Assembly (NCBI GenBank): GCA_000004985.1
Contig: GG738867.1
Length of the DNA: 64,000 nucleotides
Source of the DNA: Naegleria gruberi
Taxonomy: Eukaryota
Reading direction: 5' to 3' (one strand)
Shown: positions 44,068-52,216 of the stretch, in pieces
How positions within the stretch are numbered: the stretch's first letter is position 1
Layout: every line of letters starts with the position of its first letter
Translations under genes and position numbers: made by a program
Notes under the pieces: model-generated
Seen by the model: the letters and a program-made list of their open reading frames with translations, nothing else
What the model was told of the DNA's origin: nothing
The model's database searches: none

Positions 44068-46455
44068 TTATTCACAAATCCTTGAGATGAGTCCATAAAA
44101 TTCAACACCTGCAAGGGAAAAATAATTATTGTTCGAAGAATTGTTAGCAGTTTGAGTAATTTTGAAATATTGATAGTATGAGGTACAATTCAAATCCCAG
44201 GAACCGGTAGAGCCTTTGAGATTCAAAGCTTGGTCATTGGTATGTGTGAAAATATCTGAATAATTGATACCGTCTGAACTTCCACTCAAAGTCCAATGAC
44301 GAAGAGCTTCTCCATCTCTAGACATGGTGTGTCTGAGAGAATATTTGGTTGGCATCACTCTAATGGTTTCAAATTTGATAATTATGAAAGCATTGGCCTT
44401 TCCAATAAGATTACATTTAGTTGGTTCATGACTCACCAAGTCCTTTGCTGAGCCAACCTCAAAGTTGGATGAGGCAGTAACAGAAAGGTACGATCTATCC
44501 ATTGGGCTAGTGTATGCTTCTTGACTGTAATTGGTACCCAACCAATACAAGATTCCATTAGTATCAAAGTCCTTTTCATAGATAAAGACACGAATTTTTC
44601 TTGGTCTCGTGCTGTAAACAGATTCATCATTCTTCTTACCTTCCAATCTGCTAACTCTACTCCACAAAGCTTCCAAAATGTCTTCCTTAGATACAAAGAG
44701 TGGATCATTCTTGAGTTTAGTCAAGAGTGGAATGCTCAAGTAGGTATATCTTACACATTTGAATATTTGGACTTTTTGTTCTTGAGTCAACTTGTCCTTA
44801 TTACTTTCAATATAGTTGCAAGCAATTTCATAAACTTGATCCTCATCTTTAGTATAAAGTTCATCACATCTCAATAATTCTACAAATGTATTTGGCAATA
44901 CATCATAAATAATTGTACTTCTACCAGAGTTGAGTAAAGTGTAAAAGTTTGCAGCCAAAATTTGTGAACATTTACCAGATTGCTCTTCCAATTCTGGTAC
45001 ATGAGAATCACAGTATTGTAAATACTTGATAGCAAGTTCTACATCCAATGATCTAGAATCTACAGATGCATTGATAATGTTTTTAAATAATTCAATATTA
45101 TCAAATGCTTTGAACTCGTCAATAAATCTCTGTACAATTTCTGAAACAATTTTAACTCTCTCTTCGGTTGGATTACTCTTCATATTCTTATTTCCAATAA
45201 TGGAGAAGAAAATATCAAGAGGGAATTTACGATCATTATCAAAGACCTTTTCCACCAACTTTTGATTAAGAATATCAAAGTTATAAGCAATAGAATCAAC
45301 ACAAATACTCTTGATAGAATTATCATTTGAAATAATAGCAGAATCCAAAACATCAAACACATTCTCTGCATTGATAAATGAAAGCAAAAAGTTTTCAACT
45401 TCACACTTCAAAGGATCTACATCTAAAAAGTTGGCCAACAACTTCAAAGAAACCACATTGTATCTGTCAATGGTAATCATACCCGAATATAAATATTCTA
45501 TTAAAATTCATATATAATTACAATTATTAATAATTAATAATAATTATTACTATTACATACCAATGACTGTTGGAAAAACTTGATCAACATTACACAATGA
45601 TAAATTAGAACTCTTCTCATCAATAACACAATCCGAAGTAGTTTGGAATATCTCTCTGAAATAGGATGATCTATAACCCAGAACCATCTTGTGTACCTTG
45701 AATTGAACACCACCACATGTAACTGTAGCATCAGTAAACAAACCAGACTTGTAGAATGGTAAAAATCCTTCAATAAACAATCCAGGAATAACTTTAGCTT
45801 GCTCAATCACTTCCAATGGAACAACATCAACTTTTTCTGTTGTTGCTGTGGCTGGTGTTACTGGAGTCGGTACAGCAGTGGTGGTTGTTGTTGGAGTTGG
45901 CAATGTAGTAGTGGCAGCAGCAACAGGTGTTGGAGTTGTTGTTGTTGCAAGAGTCGGATCAACAGGTGGAGGAACACTCTTGTACTTTGTGATGAGACTA
46001 CTCGTTGGATCGACTTGAACCAGTGATTTGTATTCCTTTGTGGCGTTGTTATAGTTTGGAATGACAGCTAGAGTGAAGAGTTTAGAGCCTTCTAAAGGTT
46101 TCTTATTTATCTTTATGCCTTTTGGTGAAGAAGCAATAACATCAGTAGCACTATCTAATGTTGTTGAATCATCTGAAGCACTAGCAGTTGTAGTAGCAAG
46201 AGTTGTTGTTGTATCATCAGCAGCTGTTGTAAATAAACTACTTGTTGTTTGAGTATCAGCGGATGAAGCTTCTTGTCCTTGATCTGTTATTGTTGTTGTT
46301 GTTACTGTTGTACCTTGAATATCTCCTCCCTCTCCATTATTTGCTATCGATGAAGATGTTGCTCCCAATGTTGCAGGCGTGGTGGTTATTGTTGTTGTTG
46401 AATCCTCACTAGTGTTTGATCCAATTTCCATTTTTTTGCTTGTTGTAAAAATCAT
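44068..46455 (-). CDS. BTB/POZ-domain protein with Thr-rich mucin-like N-terminal extension and BACK-like plus beta-rich C-terminal region; exons 46455..45561 and 45497..44068
   Basis: The BTB core spans the intron (DATVTCGGVQFKVHKMVLGYRSSYFREIF...VFPTVIG | EYLYSGMITIDRYNVVSLKLLANFLDV). GTATGT donor at 45560 and TAG acceptor at 45498 (63-nt intron, phase 1). About 200 aa of T/A/P-rich sequence lie upstream of the BTB. The C-terminal approx 150 aa (HWTLSGSSDGINY...YFSLAGVEFYG) resembles a galactose-binding-like/discoidin-like module. Confidence 0.65.
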
Positions 46456-46601: not shown

Positions 46602-49600
46602 TTATAAAATTTCCTTTCTTTGAGCATTGGGTGGTTCTCTAATTCTGGCAATTTTGATGAATTGCTCGACAGTCATGGTGCTTCCATAGAGTGCAGAGGC
46701 TTCTCGTTGTTGCTTTTGGATCATCATTTGGATTTGGAAAACTGGTTGGATGGCAAAGTCAACTCGACACTTTTCCAATCTGTTCATGGCTGTGGCAAGT
46801 TCTTCAAATTTGGCCCATCGAATCATGTTATTGTGATGTTTCACATAGGTTTCAGTTGAGTAAAAGTAGCTCAATTCTTCCTGTTGTAAAAAATCCATAA
46901 AATGATTCTGAATATACATGAGCTCTCTCAAGTGAGCTTCAACAATTGGAAGACAAGGAGTTCTGCATCCATCAAATAGGTCATTATAATTCTGATATCG
47001 AGAATCTTCAACAACTACTACATCGATATGATAATTGGATGGATCAAATCCGAAAAAGATGTCATATTTGGATTTGAAATGAATGAGGGATGGAGTTGGC
47101 ATGTGAGAGAAGGAAGAATCTTTTGATTTGGCAGTATGGTGATCCTCATAAAAGACTACGAGTGGATTAGTTTCCACTTCTTCAGCTTCATTGTCATCCT
47201 CTGAGGCAATTTGTTGCTGTTTGATTGAGTTGTTGACACTTGTTGGAATTACTCTGACAGTGCTTATTGATTCCTTTCTTCTGACAATATTTGGAGATGG
47301 AAGGGAACTTTCTACATTGACAGAAGTGGAACTATTGATAGAGAATGAGTCGAATGAGCCTGATTTTCTCATTTCTTGAACAATGGTATGGCTGTGTTTT
47401 GGGTGACCGAGATTTCTCACAATACTCTTGAAACTAAAGTTGGCATTTCCTTTGAATTTCTTTTTGGATTCATCGACAGTATGGTAGAGATTTTCCTTAA
47501 TGGCTGGATGTGAAAAGATGGTAGCAAGTGCATGGGCAGCACCATAGTTTTGCATATTGTACAATTCAATAATGATTTGCTTAATCTTGATGATCAATTC
47601 AACACGATCCTTGATGTGTGGTTTATCCAAGACATCACACATAAGCCAATTAGCTCTATCGTGGATCAACTCGAGATATTGACACAATTTAGGACAATTC
47701 ATCTTGAAATATTGAGATCTAAAATTGGAAATGGCCATATTGAAATCCAAGTAGCCATACGTCTTTTTACAATTCTTTACAGAGAGAATGGAATAATTCA
47801 AAAATTCAACACTCGAAATTTCACTATAAAAGTAATAATCCATAATAGTGAATTGTCTAGATAATTCTACAGGTGACACATCTGACCATTTGAGAGAGGA
47901 TGAAAAGACATTTGGAGGAATGTTTGGTCTTGGACATTTTGACGAGTCCATGTAAATGGTTTTGTAAAAGTGATAATATTCGTCAGTGTTGGTATTATCA
48001 TCATCAAGATTTTCATCGGTATCAATTGAAGTTTCCAAGGCATTCCTCTTTCCTCTTCTATTGTTGCCATTAGTGAAGATTACATCAGAATCTGATTCAG
48101 ATAAATGGGACGAGAAGAAATTAGACAACTTATCAGAGAATGACTCTGTGTCGGTCTTTTCAATTTCCAGCGAAGTGAATTGGGTATATTCCTTAATGCT
48201 GACCTTCTTTCTCAGATTCTTCTTACCTAAAATTGTTGCCATTTTCTTTTTCAATGTTGTATTGATAGTTTCACATAATTCGAGTGCATTTCCAACTTTT
48301 GATAGAGTCACAACCGAGTCTGGAATCTTGCTTGACTCAACCTTTTTCAATAAGTGTAGGGATTTTATCTGTTCGATAATCTTTGAGAGAAATTCGAACA
48401 TGTTTTGATTCCATTGATAGTAATATTCCGATAGCCAATAGCTCAACACATCGAGACAACAAATAATAATTTCAATACACTCTACAGTTTCCAAAAGTTT
48501 TGACATTGTGTTGGTAATTCTATCAACGTGTTCACCGACTGATTCTTCAAGAATATTATCATTAGTGACATCAGTAGAGGAAAAGACTCCCTTACTATCT
48601 AATCCGAAATTTTTCATGATCAAGATGAGTGGAAGACTCAACCTTTCGAATATTTTCAATAGGAGACCATCTGGAGACAGAATGTGAACATATCCCCTGA
48701 AGAATGCCTTTCTAAAAGTGTCCTTTGTTTCGATTCTTGTCTCAGGACGTACACAATTCTCTCCAAATACTTCGAAATAATCATTAGCAACAGTATCGTA
48801 TTCTCTGAAACGAATCTTACTCATAGTATCGAATAGTCTGTGCTCAGTGACTGTAACCATTTCAATGAGTTTGTTCAAAGTCAATCCAAATAAGACGTTG
48901 TGATTCTTATCGTCGTCTTTGAATGTATAAAAATTGGAGAATGAGTCAAATAATTCATGATGTTCTCCAGTGCTTTGATTCTTCCTCTCTATGAATAGTT
49001 TTCGTTGTTTGATATCATTTGAGGTCAGAGTTTCGAATGCAATCTTGGGAATGTTTGAGAACTCCTCCCAATAGGAAGGTTTCAGAGAGAGCTTGTTAGA
49101 TTGAGAACGAAGGAGGAATTTTTGGAAGAAATTTTGAGTTACTGTTTTCGAAGGAATGAAAGTGTTTCTTCTGATGGTACTTTCTCTCACTCTCGATTTG
49201 GCAGGCGAGAGAGGAGAATTTTTGCTCGATAAAGTGCTAGCTCTTCCATGAATGGAACGAAGCTTTTCCAATGTTTCGGCAGCTGTTGGTCTTCCAATAG
49301 GATTAGGATCCAATAATTTACAAATCAATTCGGCCAATTCAGTTCCATTAGTTACACATTCCATAACTTGTTGTCTGAGTTGGGCATGGAAATTCACATT
49401 CTGATACACCTCAATGTAAAATTGTCTATTCAAGACTTGGAACAAGAGTTCATAAAATACACAACCAAGAGACCACATATCTGTCGAATATCCATATGGT
49501 TCCTGGGACATCATTTCTGGTGAGCAATATTTAACAGTACCCAGAAGAGTTTGTTCAGAGCTAAAGCTTTGTGGAACAAGAAGCTGGTCAGTGTGAATAC

Positions 49601-50426
49601 TGCCATTATTCCTATTGAAAAAATTACCTCTTTCCTTTTCCAATTCTACTGCTTCTTCACTGGTGGAGAATTTCATCTTTTTCATAGTTTCAAAATCTCC
49701 AATCTTGATCGACTTTTCATCATTGGTAACAAAAATGTTACTCGGCTTTAAATCCAAATGTACAAATCCCTCGGAATGCAAATACTTGACACCCTCTGCA
49801 ATTTGAATCATGTAACTCAATAATTGATCTCTCGAAATGACTTCAAATATTGAATTGACATGACAATTATTCGTACTTTCGTATTGTTTAGTTTTCTTCT
49901 TCAAATAGGTATCCAAATCACCATGTTTAAAGTATTCCATTTGAAAGCAAATCCAATAACTTTGTTTCTTATCAACAAGCTGACTCAAATTCTCAACTTG
50001 CATCTTGATAGATGATGATGAATCGGAAGAAATTGAACCTGCTTCAGCAATTTCATTCTCATCCTCATCGTCATCTTCACTTCCAACAAGTAATTTGGAT
50101 TTTTCACTAGCTTCATTCTTTGTATTGGCAACAAACTGATTACCATTCACATTCCCAGTACCAGTACCAACACTATTTCCTCCTCCACCTCCTCCCAAAT
50201 TAGAATTACTATTCGAATTATTTGTATTCATAATATTTGCAAACTTTTCAAAAAAGATATCTTCAATTTCTACAAGATTTGGCGACTTTAAATGTCTCAA
50301 TTTCCATCCCTCAGATATAAATCTGTTCAACTCATCCTCCGAGTAGCATTGTGTCTTTTTGAGAACTTTTGTAATGTGCTCTCGGGTGACAATGACGAGA
50401 ACCATTTGTTGATTATTCTTCATCAT
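46602..50426 (-). CDS. Protein kinase - RasGEF (CDC25-homology) fusion protein; the 5' end possibly extends upstream
   Basis: 1274-aa ORF. Kinase C-lobe motifs YLHSEGFVHLDLKPSNIF, IGDFETMK, GTVKYCSPE and DMWSLGCVFYELL. Gly/Asn-rich insert. RasGEF N-terminal-like region and a CDC25 catalytic domain (..NMQNYGAAHALATIFSHPAIKENLYHTVDE.. / ..PCLPIVEAHLRELMYIQNHFMDF). The reading frame stays open for about 70 codons upstream of the first Met without another ATG. Confidence 0.65.
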   Translation of the reverse strand: MMKNNQQMVLVIVTREHITKVLKKTQCYSEDELNRFISEGWKLRHLKSPNLVEIEDIFFEKFANIMNTNNSNSNSNLGGGGGGNSVGTGTGNVNGNQFVANTKNEASEKSKLLVGSEDDDEDENEIAEAGSISSDSSSSIKMQVENLSQLVDKKQSYWICFQMEYFKHGDLDTYLKKKTKQYESTNNCHVNSIFEVISRDQLLSYMIQIAEGVKYLHSEGFVHLDLKPSNIFVTNDEKSIKIGDFETMKKMKFSTSEEAVELEKERGNFFNRNNGSIHTDQLLVPQSFSSEQTLLGTVKYCSPEMMSQEPYGYSTDMWSLGCVFYELLFQVLNRQFYIEVYQNVNFHAQLRQQVMECVTNGTELAELICKLLDPNPIGRPTAAETLEKLRSIHGRASTLSSKNSPLSPAKSRVRESTIRRNTFIPSKTVTQNFFQKFLLRSQSNKLSLKPSYWEEFSNIPKIAFETLTSNDIKQRKLFIERKNQSTGEHHELFDSFSNFYTFKDDDKNHNVLFGLTLNKLIEMVTVTEHRLFDTMSKIRFREYDTVANDYFEVFGENCVRPETRIETKDTFRKAFFRGYVHILSPDGLLLKIFERLSLPLILIMKNFGLDSKGVFSSTDVTNDNILEESVGEHVDRITNTMSKLLETVECIEIIICCLDVLSYWLSEYYYQWNQNMFEFLSKIIEQIKSLHLLKKVESSKIPDSVVTLSKVGNALELCETINTTLKKKMATILGKKNLRKKVSIKEYTQFTSLEIEKTDTESFSDKLSNFFSSHLSESDSDVIFTNGNNRRGKRNALETSIDTDENLDDDNTNTDEYYHFYKTIYMDSSKCPRPNIPPNVFSSSLKWSDVSPVELSRQFTIMDYYFYSEISSVEFLNYSILSVKNCKKTYGYLDFNMAISNFRSQYFKMNCPKLCQYLELIHDRANWLMCDVLDKPHIKDRVELIIKIKQIIIELYNMQNYGAAHALATIFSHPAIKENLYHTVDESKKKFKGNANFSFKSIVRNLGHPKHSHTIVQEMRKSGSFDSFSINSSTSVNVESSLPSPNIVRRKESISTVRVIPTSVNNSIKQQQIASEDDNEAEEVETNPLVVFYEDHHTAKSKDSSFSHMPTPSLIHFKSKYDIFFGFDPSNYHIDVVVVEDSRYQNYNDLFDGCRTPCLPIVEAHLRELMYIQNHFMDFLQQEELSYFYSTETYVKHHNNMIRWAKFEELATAMNRLEKCRVDFAIQPVFQIQMMIQKQQREASALYGSTMTVEQFIKIARIREPPNAQRKEIL

Positions 50427-50922
50427 GGATGAATCTGCTATGGAGAGTAAATCAGCAGCAGGAATGTTATTTGTGGAGGCATCAGAAAGAGCGAGAGAAT
50501 TATGTGGTGAAGATGATGAGATGATGATTATTGATGGGATTCGAATATTGATGACTTCCGAAACTAGAGGAAGAAATTCGTTGTGAATTGGAAACGGATA
50601 GACATTTAACCACTTGATATTGTTGTTGCGAAGATGATGACTTCATCCTCGATGCTCTGGTGAACTAGTTTAAAATGTGTTGAGATGAAGAGGCTAAATA
50701 TTATTCGAAACGAAGCAGATTTTTTTGGACTGTAATATGACAAGTTAATGAGGTGTCAGATAGGTGCATCCAATTTTGCCTTTTACAATTTCTTCCTGTA
50801 CTGTAATCAAACTCCTATTCAAAGGTTACACAATCAAATTGGCGCCATTTTAAAATCTTTTTGAAAAATAAGAAAAATAGAAAAAAGGCACAAAACTTTG
50901 GAAAAACAAATTACAAAAAAAA

Positions 50923-52216
50923 ATGTCCTTATTTTCCAACTCATTATTCACGCCTCCTACAGTTGCTAATAGTGATGATTGTAAAGATTGCACAGAGGAG
51001 GGATTTACCAGTCCTATGAGTTATGTGTGTTCCGATTGTTCCTCCAATTTGTGTTGTTATCACGGACAAAAACATATGAAGGAAAATTCTGATCATTCTG
51101 TTGTAGCTAAATCAGCTTACAGTAGTAATAGTAGTAGTAATAGTGGAAATGTAACAACAAGTGGTAGCAATTTGTTTGGATTTATGAGTTCTTCTTCTTC
51201 TTCTGGTATTTTCGGATCAACAAGTAATAGTGCTAATAGTATTTTCGGATCAACAAGTGGAACAACAAGTGGTGGTGGTTTGTTTGGTAATAGTAGCAGT
51301 ACTAATAATTCTGGATCGATATTTAGTGGTGCTTTTTCAACTTCATCCCCGATTGTTGAGCTTACTCCAGAGGAAATTATGAAGAAAAATCTTGAAGCTG
51401 TTGAAATGTTTGAGAATAGTAGGGATTCTGCATTATCACTCTTTATTGCAATGCATAACCATGTTCCTGTTAACAATAGTTGTAAATTGATTTTGGTTGT
51501 AAGTGAAATATTTTCTAATTTTTTCATCTATTTGAAATATTGTTAGGGAGATAGCTGTGGAAAATCATCCTTTGTTAAAAGATTAATCTCAAATGAATTC
51601 CATGGGCCATACATTCCAACCCTTGGTGTCTCTGTTCATGCAAAGGTAAGCTCTCTTGATTAATATTAATTCAAATTGACTTTATTGAAGAAATTTGAAA
51701 CAACCCATGGTGATATCACTTTCAACATTTGGGATTGTGCAGGTCAAGAAAAGTTTGGAGGCAAGTTGACTTTATTAAGCAATTCTAATATTATTTTATA
51801 ACATTTTAGGATTGAGAGAAGGTTATTATATCAATGGTAATTGTGCCATCATTATGTTTGATTGTGTAAATTCTTTGAAAAGTGTTAATAATTGGCTTAG
51901 AGATGTTGTAAGAATTTGTGAAGGCATTCCAATTGTATTGTGTCTCAATAAGGCTGATCTCTTATCAGAGGAAGCAAGACAAAGACTCAAATTTGAAATA
52001 GCAGGTTTTCGTGGTCGTATTCTCAACTATTTCGAGTTGTCAAATAAGGATTCATTGAATTTGGAAGATCCACTCGAATATTTGGCCAAAGCACTGCTCA
52101 AAAACAAACATGTTTCATTCTTTTCCAAGGTAAGAAAGCAACAAGAAAATGTATTCCATCAAAAGCTTCAAAACACTTCCATGACAGCAGATGCCAACAT
52201 CAAGACAATTGAGTAA
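50923..52216 (+). CDS. Divergent Ran-like small GTPase with N-terminal Cys-rich zinc-ribbon-like motif and FG repeats; exons 50923..51498, 51547..51645, 51691..51760, 51810..52216
   Basis: Ran homology runs across 3 introns: KLILVGDSCGKSSFVKRLISNEF (Ran [24 protein letters not shown]), [31 protein letters not shown] (Ran [31 protein letters not shown]), and VLCLNKADL (NKxD). Intron 1 is GTAAGT...TAG and intron 2 is GTAAGC...AAG. Intron 3 can only be drawn as GCAAGT...TAG (51761..51809), which exactly restores GG-L-REGYYI. The N-terminal 190 aa have CKDC...CSDC...CCYHGQKH followed by GIFGSTSN / SIFGSTSG / GLFGNSS / LFGFMSS FG-type repeats. Confidence 0.7.

What the first reader, a model, noticed from the sequence alone, without database searches (positions are those of the whole stretch)
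46602..50640. Kinase-RasGEF fusion with atypical kinase motifs and an unresolved 5' end
A single 1274-aa ORF joins a protein-kinase-like domain to a RasGEF-N plus CDC25 domain. The kinase has HLD instead of HRD and DFE instead of DFG, and the N-terminal part of the ORF shows no glycine loop or VAIK lysine. It may be a pseudokinase scaffold for the GEF, or the N-lobe is encoded upstream. The frame upstream of the first Met stays open for about 70 codons back to about 50637 without any ATG. A separate ATG ORF (MKSSSSQQQYQV...) begins at 50646 in another frame. This pattern suggests a missing 5' exon.
Basis: partly seen in the sequence, partly recalled or inferred. Interest (0 to 1): 0.5.

Follow-up and report, generated by a model that had tools for sequence, protein, structure and literature searches.

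The report
Naegleria kinase-like RasGEF fusion gene
This is an intron-less Naegleria gene that joins an unusual protein-kinase-like domain to a Ras-activating (RasGEF) domain; its "unresolved 5' end" is a small frameshift in a coding microsatellite, not a missing exon, so the gene is a modest lineage-specific curiosity.

Summary
A 1274-codon ORF lies at 46602-50426(-), with Pfam Pkinase (5.5e-33) and RasGEF (2.4e-15). HLD replaces HRD and DFE replaces DFG. There is no GxGxxG. Upstream, 72 ATG-free codons stay open, and a separate ATG ORF starts at 50646.

The window is Naegleria gruberi-like. A 97%-identical metagenome contig and the N. lovaniensis, N. fowleri and a fourth species' orthologues all carry one uninterrupted ORF. 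Each starts at the equivalent of ATG 50646 (M..YQ[VI][VI]K.L, kinase strand beta1). The window differs by a net +1 indel in a (TCA)n repeat at about 50520-50529. No credible intron rescues the frame, so there is no missing exon.

The beta3 lysine (KVLK), alphaC Glu, HxD Asp, Asn and DFx Asp are all present and invariant. Only the Gly-rich loop, the HRD Arg and the DFG Gly are lost. The loop is replaced by a variable Ser-rich insert. By the K/D/D criterion this is not a pseudokinase.

Purifying selection is strong (dN/dS 0.13 overall, 0 in the N-lobe). No protein outside the Naegleria clade matched beyond the kinase region.

Most likely it is a Ras/Rap exchange factor regulated by an atypical kinase-like module. 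This architecture is independent of the Dictyostelium GbpC-type fusions. Interest is modest.

The parts
50500..50646 (-). True 5' end of the gene. It holds the start codon (50644-50646) and 48 codons (MKSSSSQQQYQVVKCLSVSNSQRISSSSFGSHQYSNPIN...) that encode kinase strand beta1 and a relic of the Gly-rich loop. In this window it runs out of frame into TAA at 50500-50502.
   Evidence: L001 has the same sequence and continues in frame as a 1343-aa ORF. N. lovaniensis, N. fowleri and species 4 start at the equivalent position with NYQI[VI]K.L.
50520..50529 (-). Frameshift site within a coding (TCA/ATC)n microsatellite. Compared with L001 the window has +2 nt at 50528-50529 and +2 nt at 50520-50521, plus an in-frame -3 at 50555. 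The net shift is +1.
   Evidence: All other indels in the coding sequence between the two sequences are multiples of 3.
46602..50426 (-). Main ORF of 1274 aa plus stop: a kinase-like domain, a conserved linker, a REM-like region and a CDC25-type RasGEF domain.
   Evidence: pN/pS against L001 is 0.089. dN/dS between N. lovaniensis and N. fowleri is 0.13.
49236..50405 (-). Kinase-like domain (ORF aa 8-397), running from beta2 to subdomain XI. Conserved residues are K23 (50358-50360, or K20), alphaC E39 (50310-50312), HLD, N228, DFE, SPE at aa 302-304 (APE equivalent; 49515-49523) and the subdomain XI Arg.
   Evidence: Pfam. PDB alignments to PKR and GCN2. MAFFT alignment with canonical kinases. 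BLASTP to P0098 and P0101. AF2 model with C-lobe pLDDT above 90 and N-lobe 63-92.
49980..50240 (-). Low-complexity insert of about 87 aa between beta4 and beta5 (N/S/G/D/E-rich). It is predicted to be disordered.
   Evidence: dN/dS is 0.34.
49752..49760 (-). HLD in place of HRD. The catalytic Asp is retained and the Arg is replaced by Leu. The motif is invariant in all four species.
49689..49697 (-). DFE in place of DFG. The Mg-binding Asp is retained and the Gly is replaced by Glu. The motif is invariant in all four species.
49560..49679 (-). Insert of about 40 aa in the activation segment, between DFE and GT.KY.SPE.
48729..49235 (-). Highly conserved linker (RRNTFIPSKTVTQNFFQKFLLRSQSNK.SLKPSYWEEF...) with no family match. 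It is a candidate regulatory segment.
   Evidence: Invariant columns. dN/dS is 0.046. No Pfam hit.
48387..48728 (-). REM-like (RasGEF_N) region. The match is weak.
   Evidence: PF00618 scores E=0.0015-0.022, below the gathering score, and is seen in 2 of 4 orthologues.
46605..47867 (-). CDC25-homology RasGEF domain. It is split by an insert of about 100-130 aa (about 47121-47420), so the helical-hairpin part (..CRTPCLPIVEAHLRELMYIQNH..) lies at ORF aa about 1141-1187.
   Evidence: PF00617 scores E=9e-17 in two stretches and matches 4 of 4 orthologues. Both halves align to RasGRP1 and RasGRP2.

Best explanation
The locus is one intron-less Naegleria gene. It encodes a protein of about 1345 aa: an N-terminal atypical Ser/Thr-kinase-like domain, a conserved linker, a REM-like region and a divergent CDC25-type RasGEF domain.

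Gene structure (shown). Translation in the intact form starts at the ATG at 50646. In this window a net +1 indel in a coding TCA microsatellite (about 50520-50529) disconnects the first 48 codons from the 1274-codon main ORF. I rate a real strain or allele difference at about 60% and an assembly error at about 40%. If it is real, the protein would start at the internal Met at 50426. A Met is present just before beta2 in all four species. Such a protein would lose only a disordered, weakly conserved N-terminal segment.

Mechanism (inferred). The CDC25 domain catalyses GDP release on a Ras/Rap-subfamily GTPase. The kinase-like domain acts as its built-in regulator. It keeps the Lys-Glu pair, the HxD Asp, the Asn and the DFx Asp. 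It has lost the Gly-rich loop, the HRD Arg and the DFG Gly. I therefore expect a nucleotide-binding, weakly active or auto-phosphorylating switch or dimerisation module that gates the GEF, rather than a conventional high-turnover kinase. This would be loosely comparable to the way the PKR/IRE1/RNase L-type kinase or pseudokinase domains control an attached effector; that comparison rests on my own knowledge.
For: Gene structure:
- L001 is 97% identical in DNA and carries one 1343-aa ORF beginning MKSSSSQQQYQVVKCL.
- The N. lovaniensis gene is a single 1356-aa exon beginning MNYQIVKYL.
- N. fowleri has an in-frame upstream ATG that gives MMNYQIVKYL.
- Species 4 begins MNTTGNNNYQIIKVL.
- The only frame-breaking difference lies in the microsatellite.
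- No good splice donor is available.

Function is retained:
- pN/pS between the window and L001 is 0.089.
- dN/dS between N. lovaniensis and N. fowleri is 0.13 overall, 0 in the N-lobe, 0.03-0.13 in the C-lobe and 0.08-0.09 in the CDC25 domain.

Kinase anatomy:
- Pfam Pkinase scores 115 bits.
- Catalytic residues are invariant.
- The Gly loop is replaced by a 20-65-aa Ser-rich loop. Its relic ranges from 'SGAFGGG' in species 4 to 'SFGS' in N. gruberi.
- The closest canonical relatives have GSGAFG, HRD and DFG.
- The AF2 model has a kinase fold with residues 1-79 disordered.

GEF:
- PF00617 scores above the gathering threshold in 4 of 4 orthologues.
- Both halves align to RasGRP1 and RasGRP2.
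Against: - There are no transcript data and no biochemical data.
- Whether the indel is real cannot be decided from the sequence.
- The REM domain is below Pfam threshold.
- The AF2 model of the GEF half failed (pLDDT 35), so the CDC25 fold rests on sequence profiles only.
- The invariance of all catalytic residues could equally mean a fully active non-RD kinase.
- The GTPase substrate is unknown. The Ras gene that neighbours the orthologues in three species is absent from this window.
Confidence: 0.7

Rival explanations
1. Missing 5' exon or intron. The MKSSSS ORF and the main ORF would be separate exons joined by splicing, or a further N-lobe exon would lie upstream.
For: Two ORFs lie in different frames with an overlapping open stretch. 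Nineteen GT..AG pairs would formally restore a frame. Short introns do exist in this clade (the 42-nt intron in L004).
Against: The same stretch is an uninterrupted in-frame ORF in L001 and in three other species, and all start at the same motif. The candidate donors (GTCATC, GTTTCG, GTCTAT, GTGGTT, GTTAAA) do not resemble GTAAGT. The upstream 276 bp runs into a divergent gene at 50923. The kinase domain starts within about 10 residues of Met1, so nothing is missing.
Confidence: 0.04
2. Fully active, conventional (non-RD) protein kinase. On this view the HLD and DFE variants and the long beta1-beta2 loop are tolerated, and the domain phosphorylates substrates, possibly the GEF or its GTPase pathway.
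For: K, E, D, N and D are all invariant across about 50% sequence divergence, with dN/dS of 0-0.13. HLD also occurs in a canonical kinase in the alignment (P0062). From my own knowledge it occurs in the active Wee1/Myt1 kinases. Species 4 still has 'SGAFG'.
Against: No Gly-rich loop is conserved in the Naegleria species. The N-terminal segment has dN/dS 0.39 and is predicted disordered. The DFG Gly-to-Glu change sits at the hinge of the activation segment. Three nucleotide-site motifs have changed together relative to the closest canonical relatives.
Confidence: 0.3
3. Catalytically dead pseudokinase that serves purely as a scaffold or allosteric partner for the GEF.
For: The Gly loop, the HRD Arg and the DFG Gly are lost. 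Large inserts lie in the N-lobe and in the activation segment.
Against: It fails the usual K/D/D-loss criterion, since all three residues are present and invariant. Scaffolds usually let these residues drift.
Confidence: 0.2
4. Decaying pseudogene in this strain, with the frameshift as the first step of gene loss.
For: A frame-breaking indel lies near the 5' end. The reference annotation holds only a 93-aa partial model.
Against: The 1274-codon ORF is intact. There are 28 synonymous and 10 non-synonymous differences from L001 (pN/pS 0.089), and all amino-acid changes fall in low-complexity inserts. An in-frame Met lies right after the shift.
Confidence: 0.05

Closest known systems
Orthologues: N. 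fowleri FDP41_013067 (P0002), N. lovaniensis C9374_009814 (P0003), two metagenome Naegleria-clade sequences (P0001; P0094 with P0096), and the N. gruberi partial model EFC44704.1 (P0095)
   Same: They share the architecture and are colinear over the whole length, at 50-99% identity. HLD, DFE, the missing Gly loop and the split CDC25 domain are all conserved.
   Different: In all of them the N-terminal piece is in frame. The public names are only 'hypothetical protein' or 'non-specific serine/threonine protein kinase'. The N. fowleri model starts at the internal Met. The N. gruberi model is a 93-aa fragment that splices out the DFE segment.
Dictyostelium kinase-RasGEF fusions: GbpC (ROCO family) and a LISK-family kinase with a RasGEF domain
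   Same: A protein kinase domain and a RasGEF(_N plus CDC25) module lie in one polypeptide (PMC1273635; PMC1420674).
   Different: Those kinases belong to the TKL group. GbpC also has LRR, Roc-COR, DEP and cGMP-binding domains. None of these domains was found here. No amoebozoan protein matched beyond the kinase region. The fusion here is therefore independent.
eIF2alpha kinases (PKR, GCN2, PERK) and NEK/PLK kinases, the closest solved kinase domains
   Same: They are the best PDB sequence matches, at 64.5-62 bits for PKR, GCN2 and PERK. They share the 'H.DLKPSNIF' catalytic loop. A long beta4-beta5 insert is also present; I know this as an eIF2alpha-kinase feature from my own knowledge, and most eIF2AK-type hits here have 200-390 residues between Gly loop and HRD, against about 113-118 in the remaining hits.
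   Different: The margin over PLK and NEK (60-57 bits) is too small for a family assignment. There are no dsRBD, RWD/HisRS or luminal domains. The Gly loop is absent, and HLD and DFE are present.
Uncharacterised canonical kinases P0098, P0101, P0102 and P0104 (metagenomic; some carry B-box or RCC1 domains; one is named 'NIMA-related')
   Same: They are the closest non-orthologous sequences in an exhaustive search, at 100-129 bits. They are 27-32% identical over BLASTP alignments that include long gaps at the inserts. They share motifs such as 'FKxGDL', 'GT.KY..PE' and 'Y.EV..N.NF'.
   Different: They have a normal GSGAFG, AVK/ALK, HRD and DFG, no large inserts and no RasGEF domain.
RasGRP1 and RasGRP2, the closest solved CDC25 domains
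   Same: Both halves of the catalytic domain are alignable, including the '..P.LG.HLKDL..' hairpin region with 'LPIVEAHLREL'.
   Different: The similarity is very weak (E=1e-3 to 2.5e-3). The CDC25 domain carries an insert of 100-130 aa. There are no C1 or EF-hand domains.

Membership tests
Eukaryotic protein kinase (ePK) superfamily | Significant match to the Pkinase profile and a kinase fold | tested here: met
   PF00069 scores 114.9 bits against a cutoff of 31.7. The AF2 C-lobe has pLDDT above 90, and Foldseek hits are all kinases.
Eukaryotic protein kinase (ePK) superfamily | beta3 Lys, alphaC Glu, catalytic-loop Asp and Asn, and DFG Asp | tested here: met
   K23 (or K20), E39, D225, N230 and D244 in ORF numbering. 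All are invariant in the orthologues and align to canonical kinases.
Eukaryotic protein kinase (ePK) superfamily | Gly-rich loop GxGxxG between beta1 and beta2 | tested here: not met
   It is replaced by a variable Ser-rich stretch of 20-65 aa. Only relics remain ('SFGS'; 'SGAFGGG' in species 4).
Pseudokinase (usual triad criterion, from my own knowledge: loss of at least one of the VAIK Lys, HRD Asp or DFG Asp) | At least one of the three catalytic residues missing | tested here: not met
   All three are present and invariant. Only the HRD Arg, the DFG Gly and the Gly loop are changed.
eIF2alpha kinase (PEK) family | Kinase domain clearly closest to PKR, PERK, GCN2 or HRI | tested here: inconclusive
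   They are the top PDB hits but lead PLK and NEK by only 4-7 bits. The exhaustive search finds closer kinases of NEK/PEK-like type.
eIF2alpha kinase (PEK) family | Family regulatory domains (dsRBD, RWD plus HisRS-like, luminal PQQ-like, haem-binding) | tested here: not met
   None appears in the Pfam scan.
CDC25-type RasGEF | RasGEF (CDC25-homology) catalytic domain | tested here: met
   PF00617 scores 57-62 bits against a cutoff of 23.1 and matches 4 of 4 orthologues. The second half aligns to RasGRP1 and RasGRP2.
CDC25-type RasGEF | REM / RasGEF_N domain upstream of the catalytic domain | tested here: inconclusive
   PF00618 scores 15-19 bits against a cutoff of 28.3, in 2 of 4 orthologues. 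The AF2 model of this half was unusable.
CDC25-type RasGEF | Nucleotide-exchange activity on a Ras/Rap/Ral GTPase | not testable with these tools
   This needs a biochemical assay.
ROCO / GbpC-type kinase-RasGEF | Roc-COR tandem, LRR and a TKL-group kinase | tested here: not met
   There are no Roc, COR or LRR hits. The kinase's nearest relatives are PEK, NEK and PLK, not TKL.

The most novel reading that the evidence does not exclude
This would be a Naegleria-specific signalling device. A kinase domain has been converted into a nucleotide- or dimerisation-operated switch: the catalytic core residues are kept, the Gly loop is deleted, and HLD and DFE are fixed. That switch directly gates an attached, highly divergent CDC25 RasGEF. 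This would be an IRE1/RNase L-like 'kinase domain as allosteric switch' logic applied to Ras activation. A second isoform lacking beta1 could arise from the conserved internal Met.
Probability: 0.15. Interest if true: 0.5.

Novelty: new variant of a known kind. Interest (0 to 1): 0.3.

Why it matters
Practical value. The N. gruberi reference holds only a 93-aa fragment model for this locus, as far as these searches show. The N. fowleri model starts too late. The analysis gives the full gene, its true start and the exact position of a frameshift that should be checked against reads.

Biological value. This is an independent invention of a kinase-RasGEF fusion outside Amoebozoa. It is conserved under strong purifying selection in the Naegleria clade, which includes the pathogen N. 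fowleri. Its kinase domain sits on the border between kinase and pseudokinase: the catalytic residues are intact and the Gly loop is gone. That makes it a useful natural test case for what a kinase core can do without a Gly-rich loop. It is also a candidate regulator of Ras signalling in Naegleria. It does not address a long-standing open question.

Tried and rejected
- AF2 of the linker, REM and CDC25 half with only four orthologues gave mean pLDDT 35. The model was unusable, so no fold search was run on it.
- Foldseek of the kinase model against the PDB returned generic kinases (MerTK, JAK, NIK) and did not help with family assignment.
- Word-indexed searches with the GEF half, as a single sequence and as a profile, found only the orthologues.
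- The exhaustive search listed only kinase-region hits beyond the orthologues in its top 150. More distant RasGEF-only relatives may exist below that list.
- Enumerating GT..AG introns gave 19 formal solutions. All have poor donors, and all are contradicted by the continuous orthologous ORFs.
- An exact-sequence lookup of the window ORF and of P0095 found no recorded gene.
- Literature searches (Naegleria plus RasGEF plus kinase; pseudokinase plus RasGEF; N. gruberi plus kinome) found nothing on this protein.
- The Kwon et al. 2019 pseudokinase survey is not held, so the triad criterion is cited from my own knowledge.
- I first read the domain as 'eIF2alpha-kinase-like' from the word-indexed hits. 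I withdrew that as a family assignment after the exhaustive search and the PDB comparisons.
- I considered gene neighbourhood as a clue to the substrate GTPase. The Ras gene is conserved next to three orthologues but is absent from this window.

Full report
**Observation.** The region holds a 1274-codon ORF on the minus strand, 46602-50426. Pfam finds a protein kinase domain (PF00069, E=5.5e-33) that covers only profile positions 54-259. It also finds a RasGEF/CDC25 domain (PF00617, E=2.4e-15, profile 1-124) and a sub-threshold RasGEF_N match. HLD and DFE align residue for residue with the HRD and DFG of PKR and GCN2 and of 14 other kinases. The frame upstream of Met1 stays open for 72 ATG-free codons. 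A 48-codon ORF, MKSSSSQQQYQVVKCL..., starts at 50646 in another frame and stops at 50500.

**Source.** G+C content is about 33%. The best matches are Naegleria proteins:
- N. fowleri FDP41_013067, 1306 aa, 52% identity.
- N. lovaniensis C9374_009814, 1356 aa.
- A 99%-identical 1343-aa protein from a metagenome contig (P0001 on L001).
- A fourth Naegleria-clade species, represented by P0094 and P0096 (L004).
- The N. gruberi reference entry EFC44704.1. This is a 93-aa 'partial' model that matches the window exactly where the window differs from L001. The window is therefore N. gruberi of the reference type. As far as these databases show, the gene is essentially unannotated there.

The other genes in the window are ordinary eukaryotic housekeeping genes: a BIG/Sec7 ArfGEF, PAN2, a Vps51/Sec5-like protein and an F-box protein.

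**The 5' end.**
- L001 is 97% identical to the window over 5.6 kb. In L001 the MKSSSS piece and the main ORF form one continuous reading frame.
- The N. lovaniensis gene is a single exon that starts MNYQIVKYL.
- N. fowleri has an in-frame ATG 43 codons upstream of its annotated start, giving MMNYQIVKYL.
- Species 4 starts MNTTGNNNYQIIKVL.
- All four therefore start just before the same conserved motif, YQ[VI][VI]K.L. The alignments, and the closest canonical kinase (P0098, 'RFRIVKVLGSGAFG'), identify this motif as kinase strand beta1.
- Within the coding sequence, the window differs from L001 by indels of -3, +2, +2 and +12 nt. Only the two +2 events, at 50528-50529 and 50520-50521 inside a TCA/ATC microsatellite, break the frame.
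- I enumerated every GT..AG pair that could restore the frame and found 19. None has a donor like the GTAAGT of the one verified intron of this gene family, a 42-nt intron in species 4 (L004:624-665). Each would also delete sequence that is coding in the other genomes.
- The 276 bp upstream of 50646 lead directly to a divergently oriented gene.

Conclusion: there is no missing exon. The gene starts at 50646, and in this window its first 48 codons are out of frame. The sequence alone cannot say whether that is a real allele or an assembly error. The main ORF is clearly not decaying. Against L001 it has 28 synonymous and 10 non-synonymous differences (pN/pS 0.089), and all amino-acid changes fall in low-complexity inserts. 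If the shift is real, the first in-frame Met after it (50426) is the likely start. A Met lies just upstream of beta2 in all four species. The AF2 model predicts residues 1-79 to be disordered.

**Kinase-like domain.**
- BLASTP against the closest canonical kinases aligns ORF 'KVLK-KTQCYSEDELNRFISEGW' without gaps to 'ALK-EILCQNENEINNAMREGF' and to 'AVK-RVFFSDADDFNKAMQEVW'. K23 is therefore the beta3 lysine and E39 the alphaC glutamate. MAFFT prefers K20. Both lysines are invariant.
- Also invariant are H223-L-D225, K227, N230, D244-F-E246, SPE (the APE equivalent), and the D, G and R of subdomains IX and XI.
- Three elements are missing: the Gly-rich loop, the HRD Arg and the DFG Gly.
- Between beta1 and beta2 the orthologues have a Ser-rich stretch of 20-65 aa with no conserved pattern. 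Species 4 keeps 'SGAFGGG', N. gruberi keeps 'SFGS', and N. fowleri keeps nothing recognisable.
- Two further inserts are an 87-aa low-complexity loop between beta4 and beta5 and a 40-aa insert in the activation segment. Both are predicted disordered.
- Between N. lovaniensis and N. fowleri, dN/dS is 0 for the N-lobe (56 codons, dS 0.35) and 0.03-0.13 for the C-lobe. It is 0.3-0.4 for the inserts and the N-terminal segment. The core is thus as constrained as the GEF domain.
- By the usual K/D/D criterion (my own knowledge) this is not a pseudokinase. HLD alone is not diagnostic: a canonical kinase in my alignment has it (P0062), and from memory so do Wee1/Myt1.
- Loss of the Gly loop together with the DFG Gly-to-Glu change argues against ordinary ATP handling.

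**Kinase family assignment.** The word-indexed search returned mainly eIF2alpha kinases. PKR, GCN2 and PERK are the best PDB matches at 64.5-62 bits, but PLK and NEK follow at 60-57 bits. An exhaustive phmmer search of 1.84 billion representatives found closer relatives, at 100-129 bits. These are canonical kinases, some with B-box or RCC1 domains and one named NIMA-related. Their own best PDB matches are NEK2, PKR and CaMK1. I therefore place the domain in the NEK/PEK neighbourhood without assigning a family. It is not TKL.

**GEF half.**
- PF00617 is significant in all four orthologues, in two stretches in the window protein.
- RasGRP1 and RasGRP2 align weakly to both halves. This includes the hairpin segment '..YQNYNDLFDGCRTPCLPIVEAHLRELMYIQNH..' against '..[32 protein letters not shown]..'.
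- The domain is split by a low-complexity insert of 100-130 aa.
- RasGEF_N stays below threshold.
- The GEF half finds no relative outside the Naegleria clade, either as a single sequence or as a profile. In the exhaustive search every listed non-orthologue matched the kinase region only.
- The AF2 model of this half failed (pLDDT 35), so the fold rests on sequence profiles.
- A 170-aa linker between kinase and REM is among the most conserved parts (dN/dS 0.046) and has no family match. Its invariant 'RRNTF' resembles a basophilic phospho-site; this is inference only.

**How it probably works.** The following is inferred. The protein is a Ras/Rap-family exchange factor whose activity is set by its own N-terminal kinase-like module. 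I rank the options as follows:
- About 0.5: a nucleotide-binding, weakly active or auto-phosphorylating switch.
- About 0.3: a fully active non-RD kinase.
- About 0.2: an inert scaffold.

In three sister species a Ras-subfamily GTPase gene with a YDPTIE effector motif lies tail-to-tail with the orthologue. It is an obvious first substrate candidate. It is not in this window, however, and gene adjacency is weak evidence in eukaryotes.

**Comparison with what is known.** Dictyostelium has kinase-RasGEF fusions: GbpC of the ROCO family and a LISK kinase (PMC1273635, PMC1420674). Those are TKL kinases with Roc-COR, LRR and cNMP-binding domains, none of which occurs here. No amoebozoan protein matched beyond the kinase domain. 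The Naegleria protein is therefore an independent, lineage-restricted variant of a known kind of fusion. Orthologues already sit in public databases as uncharacterised hypothetical proteins.

**Verdict.** The 'missing exon' reading is rejected in favour of a microsatellite frameshift. The 'pseudokinase' reading remains open. Interest is modest (0.3).

Noticed in passing
L002:10157-12137, L003:10134-12963, L004:3581-4327 (no counterpart in the window): A Ras-subfamily GTPase gene with a YDPTIE effector motif (two copies in N. lovaniensis) lies tail-to-tail immediately 3' of the kinase-RasGEF orthologue in three species. tblastn finds no match in this 64-kb window, where a BTB-BACK gene occupies that position.
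   Followed up: partly
window 50923-52216 (+): A Cys-rich, FG-repeat-like ORF (50923-51546) is followed by an ORF encoding the C-terminal half of a Ran-like GTPase (51812-52216; PF00071 positions 64-161; 'LNKAD' instead of NKxD). They are probably exons of one gene, divergent from the kinase-RasGEF gene, with only 276 bp between the two start codons.
   Followed up: partly
window 49611-49712 (-): The N. gruberi reference model EFC44704.1 (93 aa, partial) treats this 102-nt GT..AG stretch as an intron, which removes the DFE motif. The stretch is conserved coding sequence in all orthologues, so the model looks like an annotation artefact.
   Followed up: yes
L004:624-665: The species 4 orthologue has a 42-nt intron (GTAAGT...CTAAT...ATAG) at the SPE (APE) motif of the kinase domain. 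The intron is absent from N. gruberi, N. fowleri and N. lovaniensis, which indicates intron gain or loss within the clade.
   Followed up: partly
window 44068-46455 (-): The downstream neighbour is a BTB plus BACK protein encoded in two ORFs (45553-46455 and 44068-45480), implying one short intron. It has a long Thr/Ser-rich N-terminal region with several in-frame indels relative to L001.
   Followed up: no
L005:1-2964, L007:1501-2529: The closest canonical relatives of the kinase domain (P0101, P0104) come from one JGI metagenome (3300037860). There, kinase plus B-box genes sit in tandem with about 36-bp spacers on contigs of 14-180 kb with 38-40% G+C. The organism is unknown; it could be a protist or a giant virus.
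   Followed up: no
window 50424-50426 and the orthologue alignment A5: A Met lies 3-8 residues before strand beta2 in all four species. It is the annotated start in N. fowleri and the first in-frame ATG after the frameshift in the window, so it could be an alternative start codon.
   Followed up: no
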